A stretch of DNA of 25,074 nucleotides from a virus (lineage: Duplodnaviria > Heunggongvirae > Uroviricota > Caudoviricetes): the IMG/VR virus record IMGVR_UViG_3300042894_003937. The stretch is one strand, 5' to 3'. Position 1 is the stretch's first letter. The number at the start of each line of letters is the position of its first letter. A model generated the notes under the pieces. That model did no database searches, was not told the origin of the DNA, and was given only the letters and a program-made list of their open reading frames with translations. The position numbers were made by a program, and so were the translations under genes. Of this stretch, positions 1,244-25,074 are shown in pieces.

Positions 1244-1426
1244 TTAAAACCAATAATCTTGTTTCATTTTTATAAGTCCGGTAGAGTGAGTGAGTTCTAT
1301 TCTGCCGAGTAATCGATTTATTTTTCTCATACGGTCATAGGTCTTTAAGTTCATACTTGCTCTAACAAGTTGTCCTTTTCTTAATCCTCCACTAAATTCA
1401 GTATTTCTAAACGGATTTCTAAACAT
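1244..1426 (-). CDS. Hypothetical protein with an internal tag-like helix
   Basis: 60 aa; contains DRMRKINRLLG. Confidence 0.6.
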   Translation of the reverse strand: MFRNPFRNTEFSGGLRKGQLVRASMNLKTYDRMRKINRLLGRIELTHSTGLIKMKQDYWF

Positions 1427-1634
1427 CTTTGATTACTTTTTTTATTTTTGTTCTACGAGTTGCAGATCTCCATTGTGATTTTACTTGGTTATAATCTGAT
1501 TCTGTAATTTCCATAGATATAGAACCGCCACATATACCAGAAGTTCTATATGATGCAGGTAAAGTACACATTGCACTATCCCAATTTACTGCGACTGATC
1601 CACCACATCTACTACATTGATAGTATTTATCCAT
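1419..1634 (-). CDS. Small Cys-rich (possible Zn-ribbon) protein with C-terminal tag
   Basis: CSRC...C...C; ends RRTKIKKVIKDV. Confidence 0.7.
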   Translation of the reverse strand: MDKYYQCSRCGGSVAVNWDSAMCTLPASYRTSGICGGSISMEITESDYNQVKSQWRSATRRTKIKKVIKDV

Positions 1635-1896
1635 TTAATATATTCTCTAAATTATAATCTCTCCATTGTTGTTTTGTCATAAATACTTTCGTTTGGTATA
1701 CATCTTTATTACCACCTCTATCATTAGATAAGTTACTGTAAAAGTAATTGTCTATTTTTAATGTATGTAGATAACTATGTGATACTTCACCTTTATACCA
1801 TTTATGTAAGGTTAGAAATCCTTCATATCCAGTATTATCAACACATATTAAATCTATCCTCTTTTGATCCATCTTAACCATATAAAGGTTGTCCAC
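1627..1896 (-). CDS. SH3-like family protein with C-terminal tag
   Basis: LICVDN...LTLHKWY...VFMTKQQWRDYNLENILNG. Confidence 0.75.
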   Translation of the reverse strand: MDNLYMVKMDQKRIDLICVDNTGYEGFLTLHKWYKGEVSHSYLHTLKIDNYFYSNLSNDRGGNKDVYQTKVFMTKQQWRDYNLENILNG

Positions 1897-1935
1897 GTTA
1901 GTAACCAGGTAATGAATTGTTTTTTAATTGACATA

Positions 1936-2607
1936 TTATCTTAAATCAAATAATATAATTTCGGATTCAGTTGAGGTAACAATTTCTATTTTATCTTCTT
2001 CGATAAAGCTTAGTCCATCACCTTCAATCAAAGGTATGTTATTTATTATTACTTCACCTGAAATAACATATAGGTAATACTTACGAGTATTATTAAGTTC
2101 AAATGAAAAGTCTTGTGTGAATATACCTGATAAAAATCTTGCGTCTTGTTTTATAGGTAATTTTTCGGTAACATCACAAAACTTATTAAGTTTATCTTCT
2201 CTGGTAAACTGATACCATTCGTGTATTGGTTCGGTATCAAGTTGATTAGGTCTAACCCATAATTGAAGATACCTATTAGGTTTATCTGATGCGTTTCCTT
2301 CGGTATGTTTTATTCCACTACCTGTGCTCATTCTTTGTATAGAACCCGCTGGTATATCTAAAGTATTTCCATGACTATCAGTATGACGACAAACACCTTC
2401 TACTACATAACCGAATATTTCCATATTCTTATGTTCGTGTATTGGAACGTGACCACCGGGTTGTACTCGATCATCATTGATTGTTTGTAAGTCACTAAAG
2501 TTCATATAACGAGCATCGTAGTAAGCAGGGAAACTGAATGTTCTATACGAATTGATCCAATCTGCTTTACGATTTCCTCTTGTATGTGCAGGTCTATGTA
2601 TTATCAT
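1936..2607 (-). CDS. yhhW: Pirin-family bicupin protein (YhhW/quercetin 2,3-dioxygenase-like)
   Basis: SYRTFSF..YYD..YMNF..L.TINDD.V.PG...HEH.NMEI...H.DS.GN...QRMS.GSGI.HTE.N...LQLW. The metal-binding His and Glu residues appear intact. Confidence 0.95.
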   Translation of the reverse strand: MIIHRPAHTRGNRKADWINSYRTFSFPAYYDARYMNFSDLQTINDDRVQPGGHVPIHEHKNMEIFGYVVEGVCRHTDSHGNTLDIPAGSIQRMSTGSGIKHTEGNASDKPNRYLQLWVRPNQLDTEPIHEWYQFTREDKLNKFCDVTEKLPIKQDARFLSGIFTQDFSFELNNTRKYYLYVISGEVIINNIPLIEGDGLSFIEEDKIEIVTSTESEIILFDLR

Positions 2608-2822
2608 TATAGAATTGGGAAGCTACCATTAGCTTCAGTCATTTGTTTTTTTAATTGGTTGAATGATTCTACCAATTCGTTTTTGATAAAAACATCACCT
2701 AGTCCAGAAAATTGAGATTCATTTCTAAATTCTGAATCTGGAAATTGATCAAGGAATCCTTGTTCTGAAATTTGTTGAAATGTTGATTTCATTGTTTTAC
2801 CTACTTTTACTAACTCGCTCAT
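2607..2822 (-). CDS. Hypothetical protein
   Basis: 71-aa ORF with a TAATG overlap to the pirin start. Confidence 0.65.
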   Translation of the reverse strand: MSELVKVGKTMKSTFQQISEQGFLDQFPDSEFRNESQFSGLGDVFIKNELVESFNQLKKQMTEANGSFPIL

Positions 2823-2828
2823 AATTTT

Positions 2829-3098
2829 TTATTTAGTTATTATATTTAATTTTATCTCTCTTGTTTCCTGTAATGAAATGTTTATATAAGCCCACCCATC
2901 AATTATATCTACCGGAACTTTTGTACCCATTGATTTAATTGCTTTATCAACTTTAAATTCTATGATAACATCTTGTTTATCTGCGTTTATATATATAAAT
3001 TCTTTTACTACTATTTCATATAAACGTATGTTATCAGATGAGTATACACCATAGTATTTACCATCTGGAACATCTAATTTATTTAATGATTTAGTCAT
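2829..3098 (-). CDS. Hypothetical protein with C-terminal tag
   Basis: Ends QETREIKLNIITK. Confidence 0.7.
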   Translation of the reverse strand: MTKSLNKLDVPDGKYYGVYSSDNIRLYEIVVKEFIYINADKQDVIIEFKVDKAIKSMGTKVPVDIIDGWAYINISLQETREIKLNIITK

Positions 3099-3313
3099 TA
3101 TTGTTTAAAGTATTTACTACGTGCCAAAATATTTCCACTAATTGCTGATACAAAACCTATTGTATAGATAAACCAATTAGGATATCTAAATCCATAGTAA
3201 TGACCTGTATCGATGTCATACGTCATAATACTTAAAAGTAATGGTGATGTTAGTATAATATAGATACCAACTGTTAGTGCAAAAACTAACTTTAATGTTT
3301 TAAAATTTGTCAT
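3098..3313 (-). CDS. Two-TM small membrane protein; start moved to 3313
   Basis: Two hydrophobic segments. The track start at 3343 lies in the promoter motif. Confidence 0.65.
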   Translation of the reverse strand: MTNFKTLKLVFALTVGIYIILTSPLLLSIMTYDIDTGHYYGFRYPNWFIYTIGFVSAISGNILARSKYFKQ

Positions 3314-3333
3314 ATTAAATAATTTAATCCTCC

Positions 3334-3341
3334 AAAGATAC
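3334..3341 (-). promoter_or_regulatory. Bacteroidota -7 element TATCTTTG
   Basis: 20 nt upstream of the ATG at 3313; heads the 3313-1244 unit. Confidence 0.65.
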
Positions 3342-23564: not shown

Positions 23565-23841
23565 ATTTTAATATGTCATTAAGTTTCTCGTCTCTTATTT
23601 CGGCCTCTGTTTTTAGGTATTTACTTTTGTGTGGACAAAGTCCTGTACCAAACTTAACTAAGTGCCAACCATCAACATTTTTGGTAAAATCGACGGCATG
23701 ATTTTGTTTAGCATCAATTAGAACATCATAAGTTTCACCTTCGATAAGAGAACAATTTCCCCATACTCTATCAGTAAGTTCAATAGATTCTACACAAATC
23801 ATTTTAATAAATCTAGTCGGGTCTTTAGGAGCTTGCATCAT
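23563..23841 (-). CDS. SH3-like family protein with C-terminal tag
   Basis: MICVES...LIEGETYDV...YLKTEAEIRDEKLNDILK. Confidence 0.75.
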   Translation of the reverse strand: MMQAPKDPTRFIKMICVESIELTDRVWGNCSLIEGETYDVLIDAKQNHAVDFTKNVDGWHLVKFGTGLCPHKSKYLKTEAEIRDEKLNDILK

Positions 23842-23863
23842 AGTTATAAGTATTTAGTTTATA

Positions 23864-23871
23864 CAAAGATA
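23864..23871 (-). promoter_or_regulatory. Bacteroidota -7 element TATCTTTG
   Basis: 22 nt upstream of 23841. Confidence 0.65.
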
Positions 23872-23911
23872 CAAAAAATTATTTAATTGTATTGAAATCG
23901 AGAATAAATCT

Positions 23912-24103
23912 TTAATATTTTGCGGTTCCTTTAGCAAGATCATAAATATGCTTTGCAATTTGTAATGGCCAAACCAAAGGTCCCATTATTGCAAGTAATA
24001 CATGTCGAACCATTAAAGGTCTTTTTAATTTTATTAAATAAAACCAAATCATGTAGATAGACACTACAACTCCTATTAGATAATAAATTTCAAAATTAGT
24101 CAT
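23912..24103 (-). CDS. Small two-TM membrane protein
   Basis: YYLIGVVVSIYMIWFY; VLLAIMGPLVWPL. Confidence 0.7.
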   Translation of the reverse strand: MTNFEIYYLIGVVVSIYMIWFYLIKLKRPLMVRHVLLAIMGPLVWPLQIAKHIYDLAKGTAKY

Positions 24104-24353
24104 TTGGATATACTCTTGATTTAGATACGGTTACTACTATTTTAACATCATCCCCATTTACATCGAGGATTTCTCCATTTATACTTCCACTTGCAACAGG
24201 AAAATAGACCTTATCTCCTGATTTCATTTCGGGTGTAAAAAGTTTTTTCTTTCGTTCTGCTTTAATTGTATTGTATATTACCTTTATGATAAATACTGTC
24301 ATAAAAACTAGAAGTAATACCCACCCTACTAATGTAATTGTCTCTAAATTCAT
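24096..24353 (-). CDS. YajC-like single-TM protein; start moved to 24353
   Basis: TM helix, basic linker, then MKSGDKV...GSINGEILDVNGDDVKI...VSKSRV, as in YajC. Confidence 0.5.
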   Translation of the reverse strand: MNLETITLVGWVLLLVFMTVFIIKVIYNTIKAERKKKLFTPEMKSGDKVYFPVASGSINGEILDVNGDDVKIVVTVSKSRVYPND

Positions 24354-24372
24354 TTTATATTTTTTATTTATA

Positions 24373-24380
24373 CAAATATA
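24373..24380 (-). promoter_or_regulatory. Bacteroidota -7 element TATATTTG
   Basis: 19 nt upstream of 24353. Confidence 0.65.
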
Positions 24381-24390
24381 CAATTATTTT

Positions 24391-24978
24391 TTAACCTAAC
24401 AAACTTTTTAAAGCGTTATCTCTTTTTAATGTTTTTAATTCAGTGTCAATAGATTCCCTAACCTTTTCATAACCTATCATTGTTTCACTGTATATATTTT
24501 CGTGGTGTTGTAAGATATAACCCCATAGTTGAGAAAGTATTAGTGTACTTGTTTCTGTATTATCGGTATTATATGATGCACTTCCATTTGTAAATGCAGT
24601 ACCTGCAATAGTTTTTATAACGGTAAATGATGCTAGATTTGCTTTATTATCATAAACATATAATCTACTTCTAATTCTTAGAGTATTACCGGGGTTATAT
24701 AATTCTATTGTATATGCTTTTCTATCACTAATACCATAACTTCTTTCTTGTTCGATTTTATTTGTCCAGTCTTCAATTTTGATAGACTCTAATACATCTT
24801 TAAGTAAAGTATGTTCTGGATCAAAATCTTCCCATTTTGGAGTTTCATATTTTGGTATAGGTAAACGTAACCAGTCTTTATCTACTTCTTCTATAACTTT
24901 TTTCTTAGTTAGTGTATAGTTTTTATAAACAAAGTAGATTACTACTACAAATAAGATTATGTTTATTGTGTATATCAT
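24391..24978 (-). CDS. N-terminally membrane-anchored protein with C-terminal tag
   Basis: MIYTINIILFVVVIYFVYK; ends LKRDNALKSLLG. Confidence 0.8.
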   Translation of the reverse strand: MIYTINIILFVVVIYFVYKNYTLTKKKVIEEVDKDWLRLPIPKYETPKWEDFDPEHTLLKDVLESIKIEDWTNKIEQERSYGISDRKAYTIELYNPGNTLRIRSRLYVYDNKANLASFTVIKTIAGTAFTNGSASYNTDNTETSTLILSQLWGYILQHHENIYSETMIGYEKVRESIDTELKTLKRDNALKSLLG

Positions 24979-25074
24979 TTTAATATTTTTCTAATTTTAC
25001 GATCTCGTTCTTCAACTTTTTTATTCTCTTCTTCTTCTTTTAAAAAATCTTCATATTCTTTTGTATCATACATA
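24975..25074 (-). CDS. 3' end of an ORF (possibly partial) with C-terminal tag
   Basis: Manual translation: ...MYDTKEYEDFLKEEEENKKVEERDRKIRKILK*; ATGA overlap with the 24978 start. Confidence 0.65.
   Translation of the reverse strand, partial: MYDTKEYEDFLKEEEENKKVEERDRKIRKILK

What the first reader, a model, noticed from the sequence alone, without database searches (positions are those of the whole stretch)
1419..25074. Shared C-terminal helix (RxxKLxxL[LG]I) on about 20 unrelated small proteins
The ends read: RRTKIKKVI (1419), WRDYNLENIL (1627), TREIKLNII (2829), FRKKQIDKLL (9852), AREDKLNIIL (10042), VREKKLNELGI (10279), KRKQAIRKLFGI (12097), IRDKKLNDLGI (12222), IRDNRITKLL (12434), LRDKKLEVIL (12748), KRDMKLRQLGI (13005), LRELKLRQLL (13552), ERNEKLKELLG (14067), WREQQLNKII (14804), IRNEKLEDLGV (21404), LRDSKIDSIL (22697), YRNAVLSVLGI (23129), IRDEKLNDIL (23563), KRDNALKSLLG (24391) and ERDRKIRKIL (24975). 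The bodies differ completely: SH3-like, Zn-binding, coiled-coil and membrane-anchored. The Arg codon varies (AGA/CGT/CGA), as do Lys and Leu codons, so selection is on the peptide rather than a DNA repeat. The i, i+4, i+7, i+8 spacing fits an amphipathic docking helix. I know of no described function. Hypotheses: a docking motif for one phage hub/scaffold or host complex, a membrane-targeting helix, an oligomerisation tag, or a timed degron.
Basis: partly seen in the sequence, partly recalled or inferred. Interest (0 to 1): 0.85.

Follow-up and report, generated by a model that had tools for sequence, protein, structure and literature searches.

The report
Shared C-terminal helix tag, huge phage
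About a third of the small genes in this piece of a giant bacteriophage genome, and 15% of all genes in two published 635-642 kb relatives, encode mostly unrelated proteins that end in the same short arginine-containing helix. It behaves like an undescribed address or docking label whose reader is still unknown.

Summary
All 20 quoted tails exist. 19 of 64 called proteins carry the core motif in their last 15 residues, against 0.23 expected from shuffled tails and 2 internal hits in 6,959 positions. Selection acts on the peptide: Arg codons match background usage, Leu and Ile interchange, and the downstream DNA context varies.

"Unrelated bodies" is only partly true here. Six to nine carriers share one SH3-like barrel, and three tails are weak.

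In whole published relatives the tag is clearly portable. LR745206 has 146 of 982 genes tagged and LR756502 has 149 of 1,001. The 146 bodies fall into 144 BLAST groups. Lys never replaces the Arg. The sister 735-kb phage LR756501 has 2 of 1,063, and instead carries a different C-terminal tag, ...DPYGEE[NDE]W.

Carriers are small proteins with no known domain, mostly in operons with host-type promoters. In this window none also carries the T4-like N-terminal tag.

Best reading (about 50%): a docking helix read by one clade-specific partner. One lead: tagged genomes encode two or three ClpP and a ClpC that lacks its N-domain. A membrane helix or a DNA-level signal is unlikely.

This scan had already found the tag in this genome and in other huge phages. 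I found no published description.

The parts
1419..1469 (-). tail of 71-aa Cys-rich protein (RRTKIKKVIKDV); weak member
   Evidence: outside-trained matrix score -8.7, not above noise
1627..1674 (-). tail of 89-aa SH3-like barrel protein (WRDYNLENILNG)
   Evidence: score 22.5; barrel family member with the tail masked
2829..2873 (-). tail of 89-aa protein (TREIKLNIITK)
   Evidence: score 19.3
9852..9899 (-). tail of 66-aa protein (FRKKQIDKLLSL)
   Evidence: score 27.0; ortholog keeps the tail
10042..10089 (-). tail of 75-aa SH3-like barrel protein (AREDKLNIILDE)
   Evidence: AlphaFold2 helix at residues 61-73, pLDDT about 83; score 23.3
10279..10323 (-). tail of 79-aa protein (VREKKLNELGI)
   Evidence: score 28.2; tail identical in the ortholog
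12178..12225 (+). tail of 42-aa mini-protein (KRKQAIRKLFGI); weak member
   Evidence: score -10.2
12393..12437 (+). tail of 71-aa SH3-like barrel protein (IRDKKLNDLGI)
   Evidence: score 9.5
12707..12751 (+). tail of 105-aa protein (IRDNRITKLLQ)
   Evidence: score 6.5; its homolog in LR745206 has no tail
12952..13008 (+). tail of 86-aa protein (LRDKKLEVILQSTSL)
   Evidence: score 11.1; five trailing residues
13137..13184 (+). tail of 59-aa Cys-rich protein (KRDMKLRQLGIK)
   Evidence: score 12.5; not a barrel
13552..13602 (-). tail of 171-aa alpha/beta protein (LRELKLRQLLYEV)
   Evidence: KLLRELKLRQLL kept in 14 of 15 aligned sequences (one, P0029, has an altered tail); the last 2-3 residues vary; score -2.0
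14067..14111 (-). tail of 148-aa coiled-coil plus beta-rich protein (ERNEKLKELLG)
   Evidence: score 1.4; the LR745206 homolog (39% identity) keeps the tail
14804..14845 (-). tail of 98-aa protein (WREQQLNKII), closest to the family consensus
   Evidence: score 34.8
21404..21448 (-). tail of 91-aa protein (IRNEKLEDLGV)
   Evidence: score 10.9
22865..22909 (+). tail of 70-aa protein (LRDSKIDSILE)
   Evidence: score 5.7
23492..23536 (+). tail of 135-aa protein (YRNAVLSVLGI); weak member
   Evidence: score -5.2; followed by a terminator hairpin
23563..23607 (-). tail of 92-aa protein (IRDEKLNDILK)
   Evidence: score 16.6
24391..24435 (-). tail of 195-aa protein with an N-terminal membrane anchor (KRDNALKSLLG)
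   Evidence: score -1.3; the LR745206 homolog (34% identity) keeps the anchor and the tail
24975..25019 (-). tail of 32-aa mini-protein (ERDRKIRKILK)
   Evidence: score 11.5
20166..20207 (+). internal copy of the helix (DLVEWRERQIEKIT) between an SH3-like barrel and an 80-residue extension in the 153-aa protein at 20001-20462
   Evidence: score 27.2, the only strong internal match in the window
865..912 (-). degenerate tail (WKTNLRKMLDKKKIC) on a barrel family member, with Lys in place of the Arg
   Evidence: score -4.4
23098..23142 (+). degenerate tail (WKMAIKKESYNDFI) on a barrel family member, with Lys in place of the Arg
   Evidence: score -11.8

Best explanation
The tail is a portable C-terminal docking helix of about 10-14 residues. 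In the relatives its consensus is [KIL]-[SQ]-E-[IL]-R-[DNE]-x-K-[LI]-[NDK]-x-[IL]-[LG], followed by 0-6 free residues. It is carried by a large, fast-evolving set of small cytoplasmic proteins in one clade of Bacteroidota-infecting huge phages (Mahaphage group). These carriers appear enriched in early, host-promoter-driven operons.

The L-x-x-[IL]-L hydrophobic face, with an invariant Arg at its centre, would insert into a groove on one common, clade-specific partner, in the way LxxLL-type helical motifs work. The variable body gives each protein its own activity or target.

Shown: the motif is real, terminal, selected as a peptide, Arg-specific, clade-specific, present on more than 100 sequence-unrelated bodies, and gained or lost between homologs.

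Inferred: that there is a single reader, and what it is. The only concrete candidate I found is the phage's own Clp machine. Its ClpC lacks the adaptor-binding N-domain but keeps the ClpP-docking GVGF loop, and there are two or three true ClpP. The tag would then be either a degron that times removal of early proteins or a tether for adaptor proteins. That specific step is a lead only; I give it about 15% overall.
For: Frequency and position:
- Window: 19 of 64 proteins against 0.23 expected, and 2 internal hits in 6,959 positions.
- Whole genomes: LR745206 has 146 of 982 genes tagged and LR756502 has 149 of 1,001. Terminal enrichment is 66-68-fold for the core pattern and 146-150-fold for the strict one. 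Trailing length is 0-6 residues, most often 1.

Not a composition effect:
- The sister huge phage LR756501 (32% GC) has 2 of 1,063. The first 200 kb of LR756508 has 1 of 312.

Portability:
- The 146 tagged bodies fall into 144 BLAST groups, and only 7 are barrels.
- The g12434p homolog lacks the tail, while the homologs of g14067m and g24391m keep it at 34-39% body identity.
- 51 of 53 long tandem-barrel relatives have no helix, whereas 76 of 97 single barrels end in it.

Specific recognition:
- Position 0 is Arg in 171 of 177 strict terminal motifs and never Lys, although Lys is 2.5 times commoner.
- Every helix position carries at least 1.2 bits. The helix averages 2.26 bits against 1.55 for the barrel.

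Selection:
- Non-synonymous change is 0.119 per codon in tails against 0.207 in bodies (p = 0.016).
- The tail is unchanged in 14 of 15 aligned g13552m sequences.
- Codon use matches the background.

Which proteins carry it:
- 21-31% of 60-150 aa proteins, but 2 of 173 proteins over 300 aa.
- No Pfam domain on the ten largest carriers.
- It overlaps the N-terminal MKYLKxFNE tag in 0 of 11 cases in the window (p = 0.01) and in 1 of 47 in LR745206.
- Carriers sit in host-type rather than TATATA-type promoter units, relative to N-tag genes (odds ratio 16, p = 2e-7, crude assignment).
- Nine of 140 carriers have an N-terminal anchor followed by basic residues, which places the tag in the cytoplasm.

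Clp lead:
- ClpP at 184-260 bits, two or three copies, plus an N-domain-less ClpC with a GVGF loop, in both tagged genomes.
- The gene after ClpP1 and the gene before ClpC carry tag-like tails in both genomes.
Against:
- In this window up to nine carriers are one barrel family, so part of the pattern is common descent.
- In the model of g10042m the helix has pLDDT about 83, and the top AlphaFold DB match superimposes barrel and helix together (TM 0.85). The helix may therefore pack on its own barrel.
- About ten internal copies per genome show that a free C-terminus is not strictly required.
- The Clp link rests on two closely related tagged genomes against two untagged ones, so it is effectively one clade.
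- LR756501 has its own C-terminal tag but no ClpP.
- The last residues vary, unlike ssrA-type degrons.
Confidence: 0.5

Rival explanations
1. Self-association module. The helices bundle with each other, as homo- or hetero-oligomers, making small single-domain proteins multivalent. There is no separate reader.
For: Single-barrel proteins carry the helix, while covalently repeated tandem-barrel relatives do not. That is what one expects if oligomerisation substitutes for repeats. All faces of the helix are conserved. Two carriers are little more than a helix (32 and 42 aa).
Against: Homo-oligomerisation does not require near-identical sequence on more than 140 unrelated bodies, nor an Arg that Lys can never replace. 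Uniform tags would cross-associate indiscriminately. The helix is only about 2.5-3.5 turns long. The tandem-barrel proteins may come from unrelated organisms with another function.
Confidence: 0.15
2. Inherited structural cap. The helix is an intramolecular stabilising element of an ancient small-protein family. It has been retained while bodies diverged or were replaced by recombination within gene arrays, and it has no shared partner.
For: The barrel-plus-helix family is very large: 2,449 clusters, with consensus ...RFITLEEWREKQLNKIL. SH3-like barrels capped by a C-terminal helix are a known architecture, seen in PWWP and chromo-like hits that cover the helix. Helix pLDDT is about 83. Carriers lie in arrays where 3' ends could be retained.
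Against: The barrel folds without the helix in 51 of 53 tandem relatives. Only 7 of 146 carriers in LR745206 are barrels. The same Arg-specific sequence sits on alpha/beta, Cys-rich, coiled-coil and membrane-anchored bodies that offer different packing surfaces. Polar helix positions are conserved too. A sister clade uses a quite different terminal tag in the same way.
Confidence: 0.12
3. Translation or RNA-level signal. The conserved 3' end serves translational coupling or re-initiation, or acts as a nascent peptide at termination, in Shine-Dalgarno-less Bacteroidota operons.
For: The motif lies at a nearly fixed distance from the stop codon. Tagged genes are followed by a tightly coupled gene more often than untagged ones: 60-68% against 41-43%, p = 8e-4 and 3e-8. 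Synonymous change is also lower in tails.
Against: Of tagged genes, 32-40% are not coupled, and some precede terminators or opposite-strand genes. Codon choice follows the background, and Leu/Ile exchange changes first codon bases. Spacing to the stop varies by 0-6 codons, which is too loose for known arrest peptides. Internal copies exist. Dense early arrays confound the coupling statistic.
Confidence: 0.05
4. Membrane-targeting amphipathic helix of the MinD or FtsA type.
For: It is terminal, short and helical, with Leu/Ile and basic residues. One tail (KRKQAIRKLFGI) resembles the MinD C-terminus; this comparison is from my own knowledge.
Against: The mean hydrophobic moment is 0.21, net charge runs from -2 to +7, and Asp or Glu is frequent at position 1. 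Arg is never replaced by Lys. Some carriers already have a transmembrane anchor.
Confidence: 0.03

Closest known systems
Capsid targeting sequence (CTS) of phage T4 internal proteins IPI-III and Alt
   Same: A roughly 10-residue terminal peptide shared by unrelated proteins of one phage and read by one phage structure. This phage also has a CTS-like N-terminal tag (MKYLKxFNE) on other genes.
   Different: The CTS is N-terminal, sits on late virion proteins and is cleaved. The tag here is C-terminal and enriched in host-promoter operons. It is almost mutually exclusive with the N-tag and occurs on membrane-anchored proteins.
Clp degrons and tethers (ssrA tag, MuA C-terminus, SspB ClpX-binding tail) and the SPO1 gp53 adaptor-like protein acting on ClpC (PMC6873191)
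   Same: Short C-terminal peptides on unrelated proteins are read by one AAA+ machine. A phage host-takeover protein is known to dock on ClpC. Tagged genomes encode ClpC and ClpP.
   Different: ssrA-type recognition depends on the last residues and the carboxylate, whereas here the last 0-6 residues vary. The tag is a predicted helix. No binding has been shown. The phage ClpC lacks the N-domain that gp53 and MecA use.
LxxLL and related helical short linear motifs (nuclear-receptor boxes)
   Same: [LI]-x-x-[LI]-L on one face of a short amphipathic helix, with flanking basic residues. This is a plausible groove-docking geometry.
   Different: The resemblance is physical only. Those motifs are eukaryotic, internal, and lack an invariant Arg. 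This comparison is from my own knowledge and was not tested.
Cargo-loading peptides of encapsulins and encapsulation peptides of bacterial microcompartments
   Same: Terminal short peptides or helices on unrelated cargo, read by one shell protein.
   Different: Neither tagged genome has a BMC shell or encapsulin gene. Carriers number about 150, are mostly in host-promoter units, and include membrane proteins.
Poxvirus ankyrin proteins with a C-terminal PRANC / F-box-like motif
   Same: A large viral paralog arsenal of variable binding domains, each ending in one conserved short C-terminal motif that plugs into one degradation machine.
   Different: That is a eukaryotic ubiquitin system and its bodies are one repeat family. 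Here the bodies are mostly unrelated and the partner is unknown. This comparison is from my own knowledge.
Pfam DUF6501 (PF20111) and phrog_4927, small SH3-like barrel proteins of unknown function
   Same: The barrel that carries the helix in 6-9 window proteins matches these weakly: 16 of 94 and 30 of 94 family members respectively. The fold is SH3-like.
   Different: Window proteins score below the Pfam cut-off. These families describe the barrel and not the tag. Most carriers are not barrels.

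Membership tests
SH3-like small beta-barrel fold (body of part of the carriers) | Five-stranded barrel that superimposes on SH3 domains | tested here: met
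   The AlphaFold2 model of g10042m has pLDDT 83.7, five strands and a helix at 61-73. Foldseek against Abl and Fyn SH3 and YorP gives TM 0.57-0.62 and probability 1.0, but E-values of only 7e-3. An AlphaFold DB match has TM 0.85.
Pfam DUF6501 (PF20111) | Whole-protein score at or above the gathering cut-off of 23.8 bits | tested here: inconclusive
   g12222p scores 18.5 bits, E = 0.0018, below the cut-off. 16 of 94 wider family members match at E <= 0.01. Tandem-barrel relatives score 41-73 bits.
ssrA-type C-terminal degron (ClpX / ClpA) | Recognition determinants are the last 2-3 residues plus the free carboxylate, so the extreme end is conserved | tested here: not met
   The last 0-6 residues vary freely (GI, LQ, LSL, DE, NG, YEV ...). 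The conserved part lies upstream.
Clp-dependent tag (general) | A Clp unfoldase able to dock on ClpP is present in the same system | tested here: met
   There are two or three ClpP with an intact Ser-His-Asp triad and a ClpC-like ATPase with a GVGF loop in LR745206 and LR756502. The window's own genome could not be searched.
Clp-dependent tag (general) | Physical binding to or degradation by the Clp machine | not testable with these tools
This needs biochemistry.
T4 capsid targeting sequence | N-terminal position, cleavage by the prohead protease, late expression | tested here: not met
   The motif is C-terminal. It is enriched in host-type promoter units and is almost exclusive with the CTS-like N-tag.
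MinD / FtsA-type membrane targeting sequence | High hydrophobic moment, net positive charge, interchangeable Lys and Arg | tested here: not met
   The mean hydrophobic moment is 0.21, net charge runs from -2 to +7, and Asp or Glu is common. Arg occupies 171 of 177 positions and Lys none.
BMC encapsulation peptide / encapsulin cargo-loading peptide | The cognate shell gene (PF00936 or PF04454) is present in the genome | tested here: not met
   There is no match in LR745206 or LR756502, and the control genomes were detected.

The most novel reading that the evidence does not exclude
The roughly 150 tagged proteins per genome are a library of diversified small binders. Each uses the common C-terminal helix to hand a different host protein (defence, transcription, division) to the phage's own N-domain-less ClpC-ClpP1P2 protease. 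This would be a bacterial-virus counterpart of the poxvirus ankyrin/PRANC hijack of SCF ligases. Different huge-phage clades would have evolved different tag-reader pairs, such as ...DPYGEE[NDE]W in the 735-kb phage.
Probability: 0.08. Interest if true: 0.95.

Novelty: new variant of a known kind. Interest (0 to 1): 0.8.

Why it matters
One short peptide marks about 15% of the genes of the largest known phages, and almost all of those genes have no known function. Finding its reader would assign a common pathway to hundreds of such proteins at once. It would also show how huge phages organise their early programme, whether by timed turnover, targeted destruction of host proteins or recruitment to a hub. 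It would provide a compact portable tag for Bacteroidota. The contrast between tagged and untagged sister genomes, and the second tag in the 735-kb phage, make the question testable by comparative genomics and simple biochemistry.

Tried and rejected
Tools or data not available:
- No whole genome is held for the window.
- The 641-kb contig behind L007 is not searchable.

Searches that found nothing:
- DNA search of phage records gave only collagen-repeat hits.
- tblastn of carriers against phage records found nothing at E <= 0.01. Weak hits at E of 3-4 led to LR745206 and LR756502.
- IMG/VR scans found nothing.
- A degenerate DNA pattern for WREKQLNKI, scanned over one genome for each of 185,579 bacterial and archaeal species, gave two chance hits. 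Their loci carry 1 of 17 and 0 of 11 tags and served as negative controls.
- Pfam and PHROGs on carriers gave nothing above cut-off.
- Lon, PDZ, GroEL, BMC shell and encapsulin are all absent from the tagged genomes.
- Literature searches found no description of either tag. The huge-phage paper does not mention Clp or a C-terminal motif.

Uninformative results:
- The AlphaFold2 model of g13552m has low confidence (pLDDT 53), so its fold is not reliable.
- A subtraction of proteins shared by the two tagged genomes but absent from the untagged one left 98 candidates, too many to name a reader.

Ideas considered and dropped:
- Half of a SAP / Rho_N helix-hairpin, because the register differs by one residue and the second helix is missing.
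- A beta-clamp-binding motif, because the spacing and conformation differ.

Full report
WHAT THE WINDOW IS. The window is 28% GC and densely packed with small ORFs on both strands. It has two tail-fibre-like genes. It has Bacteroidota-type promoters (TAnnTTTG, often TTGTATATTTGTA) before operons of small genes. A different motif, TAATATATA, lies a few bases before the ATG of genes that start MKYLKxFNE and before the fibre genes. Earlier notes of this scan place it in a huge uncultured phage. It shares eight proteins at 28-75% identity with the published 634,780-bp genome LR745206. That genome is one of the Mahaphage genomes predicted to replicate in Bacteroidetes (PMC7162821).

THE OBSERVATION. 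All 20 quoted tails are there, and the coordinates are the low coordinate of each gene. A core pattern R-x-x-[KQRANV]-[LI]-x-x-[LIV]-[LIGF] lies within six residues of the C-terminus in 19 of 64 called proteins, with one near match in addition. It occurs only twice in 6,959 internal positions. Shuffled tails give a mean of 0.23 and a maximum of 3 in 5,000 trials.

The Arg codons (AGA 14, CGT 3, CGA 2, CGG 1) mirror the background, and Leu and Ile interchange. What follows the stop differs from gene to gene: an ATGA overlap, a promoter, or a terminator. So the constraint is on the peptide.

In orthologs from six related contigs, tails change less than bodies: 0.119 against 0.207 non-synonymous differences per codon, p = 0.016. 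Fourteen of 15 aligned g13552m sequences keep KLLRELKLRQLL unchanged while the last two or three residues vary.

HOW UNRELATED ARE THE BODIES? They are less unrelated than claimed in this window. With tails masked, a profile joins g865m, g1627m, g10042m, g12222p, the N-terminal half of g20001p and g22930p. g10279m and g14804m are borderline.

The fold is an SH3-like five-stranded barrel followed by the helix. A profile search found 2,449 clusters of this family. Among the best 150, 76 of 97 single-barrel proteins end in ...RFITLEEWREKQLNKIL-like tails. In contrast, 51 of 53 long tandem-barrel proteins have no helix at all. The helix is therefore an add-on to the barrel and not part of its fold.

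Two family members in the window have degenerate tails with Lys in place of the Arg. One, g20001p, has the helix internally. A scoring matrix trained only on the outside proteins recognises 15 of the 20 tails. These include non-barrel bodies such as the Cys-rich g13005p, the 32-aa g24975m and g12434p. It does not recognise the tails at 1419, 12097 or 23129.

WHOLE-GENOME TEST. I fetched four published huge-phage records.
- LR745206: 146 of 982 genes tagged (14.9%).
- LR756502: 149 of 1,001 genes tagged.
- Terminal enrichment in these two is 66-68-fold for the core pattern and 146-150-fold for the strict one.
- LR756501 (735 kb, 32% GC): 2 of 1,063.
- LR756508, first 200 kb: 1 of 312.

This excludes a composition effect and shows the tag is clade-specific.

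In LR745206 the 146 tail-masked bodies form 144 BLAST groups, and only seven are barrels. Carriers make up 21-31% of proteins of 60-150 residues but only 2 of 173 proteins over 300 residues. None of the ten largest has a Pfam domain. Nine of 140 carriers have an N-terminal anchor followed by basic residues, which puts the tag in the cytoplasm.

When the rest of the strict motif is terminal, position 0 is Arg in 171 of 177 cases and never Lys. An independent 20-kb stretch of a 641-kb contig has 27 of 55 genes tagged. The homolog of g12434p lacks the tail, while the homologs of g14067m and g24391m keep it at 34-39% body identity.

WHAT IT IS PROBABLY NOT.
- A membrane-targeting helix. The hydrophobic moment is low, acidic residues are common, the Arg is never replaced by Lys, and some carriers already have a transmembrane anchor.
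- A DNA repeat.
- An ssrA-type degron in the strict sense, because the last residues are free.
- A T4-type capsid signal. It is C-terminal and almost exclusive with the CTS-like N-tag: 0 of 11 in the window, p = 0.01, and 1 of 47 in LR745206. Relative to N-tag genes it is enriched in host-type promoter units (odds ratio 16, p = 2e-7). That promoter assignment is crude in such AT-rich DNA.
- A translational-coupling signal is not fully excluded. Tagged genes are more often followed by a coupled gene. However, a third or more are not, and spacing to the stop varies.

MOST LIKELY MECHANISM. The tag is a docking helix read by one clade-specific partner. The arguments are these:
- One nearly uniform, Arg-specific sequence sits on more than 100 unrelated bodies.
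- Both faces of the helix are conserved: 2.26 against 1.55 bits per position. The hits were selected with a profile that included the helix, which biases this figure.
- The position is terminal.
- Homologs gain and lose it.
- A sister clade uses a quite different terminal tag in the same way. At least 32 of 36 pattern-matched proteins of LR756501, 55-843 residues long, end in ...DPYGEE[NDE]W plus two residues.

The one concrete lead is that both tagged genomes encode two or three true ClpP (184-260 bits, catalytic triad intact). They also encode a ClpC-like ATPase that keeps the GVGF ClpP-docking loop but lacks the Clp_N domain. The untagged LR756501 has a Clp ATPase with Clp_N and no ClpP. 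The gene after ClpP1 and the gene before ClpC carry tag-like tails in both tagged genomes.

These two genomes are close relatives, so this amounts to one observation. I treat it as a hypothesis to test. A phage protein that docks on ClpC is known from SPO1 (PMC6873191).

WHAT REMAINS OPEN. I could not see the model coordinates, so I cannot say whether the helix packs on its own barrel. Its pLDDT of about 83, and a TM 0.85 match that includes the helix, allow that possibility. Self-association of the helices and a purely structural, inherited cap are live rivals.

NOVELTY. I found no description in Pfam, PHROGs or the searchable literature. I re-tested the frequency claim for a 635-kb relative and it holds.

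- the untagged sister genome as a control;
- the second tag in the 735-kb phage;
- the finding that the tag is the signature of a very large barrel family yet is absent from tandem-barrel relatives;
- the Arg-never-Lys rule;
- the Clp lead.

Noticed in passing
LR756501.1 (735 kb), e.g. 145582-145887, 500330-502730, 552922-560466 of that record (loci L079-L115): This tag-free sister huge phage has its own C-terminal tag, ...(R)(I/V)F(S)xxDPYGEE[NDE]W plus about two residues. It is on at least 32 proteins of 55-843 aa. The G..[NDE]W pattern hits 36 termini against 74 internal hits in 217,124 positions. No paper in the library holds the string in a phage context.
   Followed up: partly
LR745206.1 123556-124221, 75119-75859, 423224-425329; LR756502.1 58607-59281, 112095-112817, 364437-365003, 440544-442667: The two tagged Mahaphage genomes encode two or three cellular-type ClpP and a 701-707 aa ClpC-like ATPase. 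The ATPase has a GVGF loop but no Clp_N domain. Small genes carrying tag-like tails lie directly next to ClpP1 and ClpC in both genomes.
   Followed up: partly
window 8809-9249, 9678-9851, 10748-12053, 17109-17558, 18244-18738, 19456-19791, 20578-21380, 22211-22672: Eleven genes start with MKYLKxFNE-like leaders, which resemble the T4 capsid targeting sequence. Most belong to one ~140-aa paralog family. Eight have TAATATATA-like sequence 4-16 bases before the ATG. The same motif precedes both tail-fibre-like genes (3421, 6951).
   Followed up: partly
window 10255-10278, 24384-24400, 19060-19090, 15530-15560: Host-type promoters of the form TTGTATATTTGTA lie so close to the ATG that an ORF caller reads them as spurious 'LYIC...' N-termini. 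The transcripts may be leaderless or nearly so.
   Followed up: no
window 23537-23562: Convergent tagged genes 23129-23536 (+) and 23563-23841 (-) share one bidirectional terminator hairpin (GAGAAC...GTTCTC flanked by A and T runs).
   Followed up: no
L001 11073-13208 (and L002-L006) versus window 13005-13008: In six related contigs a 698-711 aa legume-lectin-domain gene lies between the orthologs of g13005p and g12748p, which overlap directly in the window. g12434p and several other window genes are missing from those contigs, so cassette-like gene turnover occurs inside the arrays.
   Followed up: no
window 3421-5820: This 799-aa protein has a collagen-like Gly-X-Y repeat. Its DNA matches collagen-like genes of Bacillus phages Gamma and WBeta and of the huge phages at 76-89% over about 80 bases.
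   Followed up: no
P0029 (ortholog of window 13552-14067): One ortholog ends ...KLLREFIQLDYYFYKF in place of ...KLLRELKLRQLLYEV. It looks like a frameshift or indel that destroyed the tag in an otherwise 79% identical protein.
   Followed up: no
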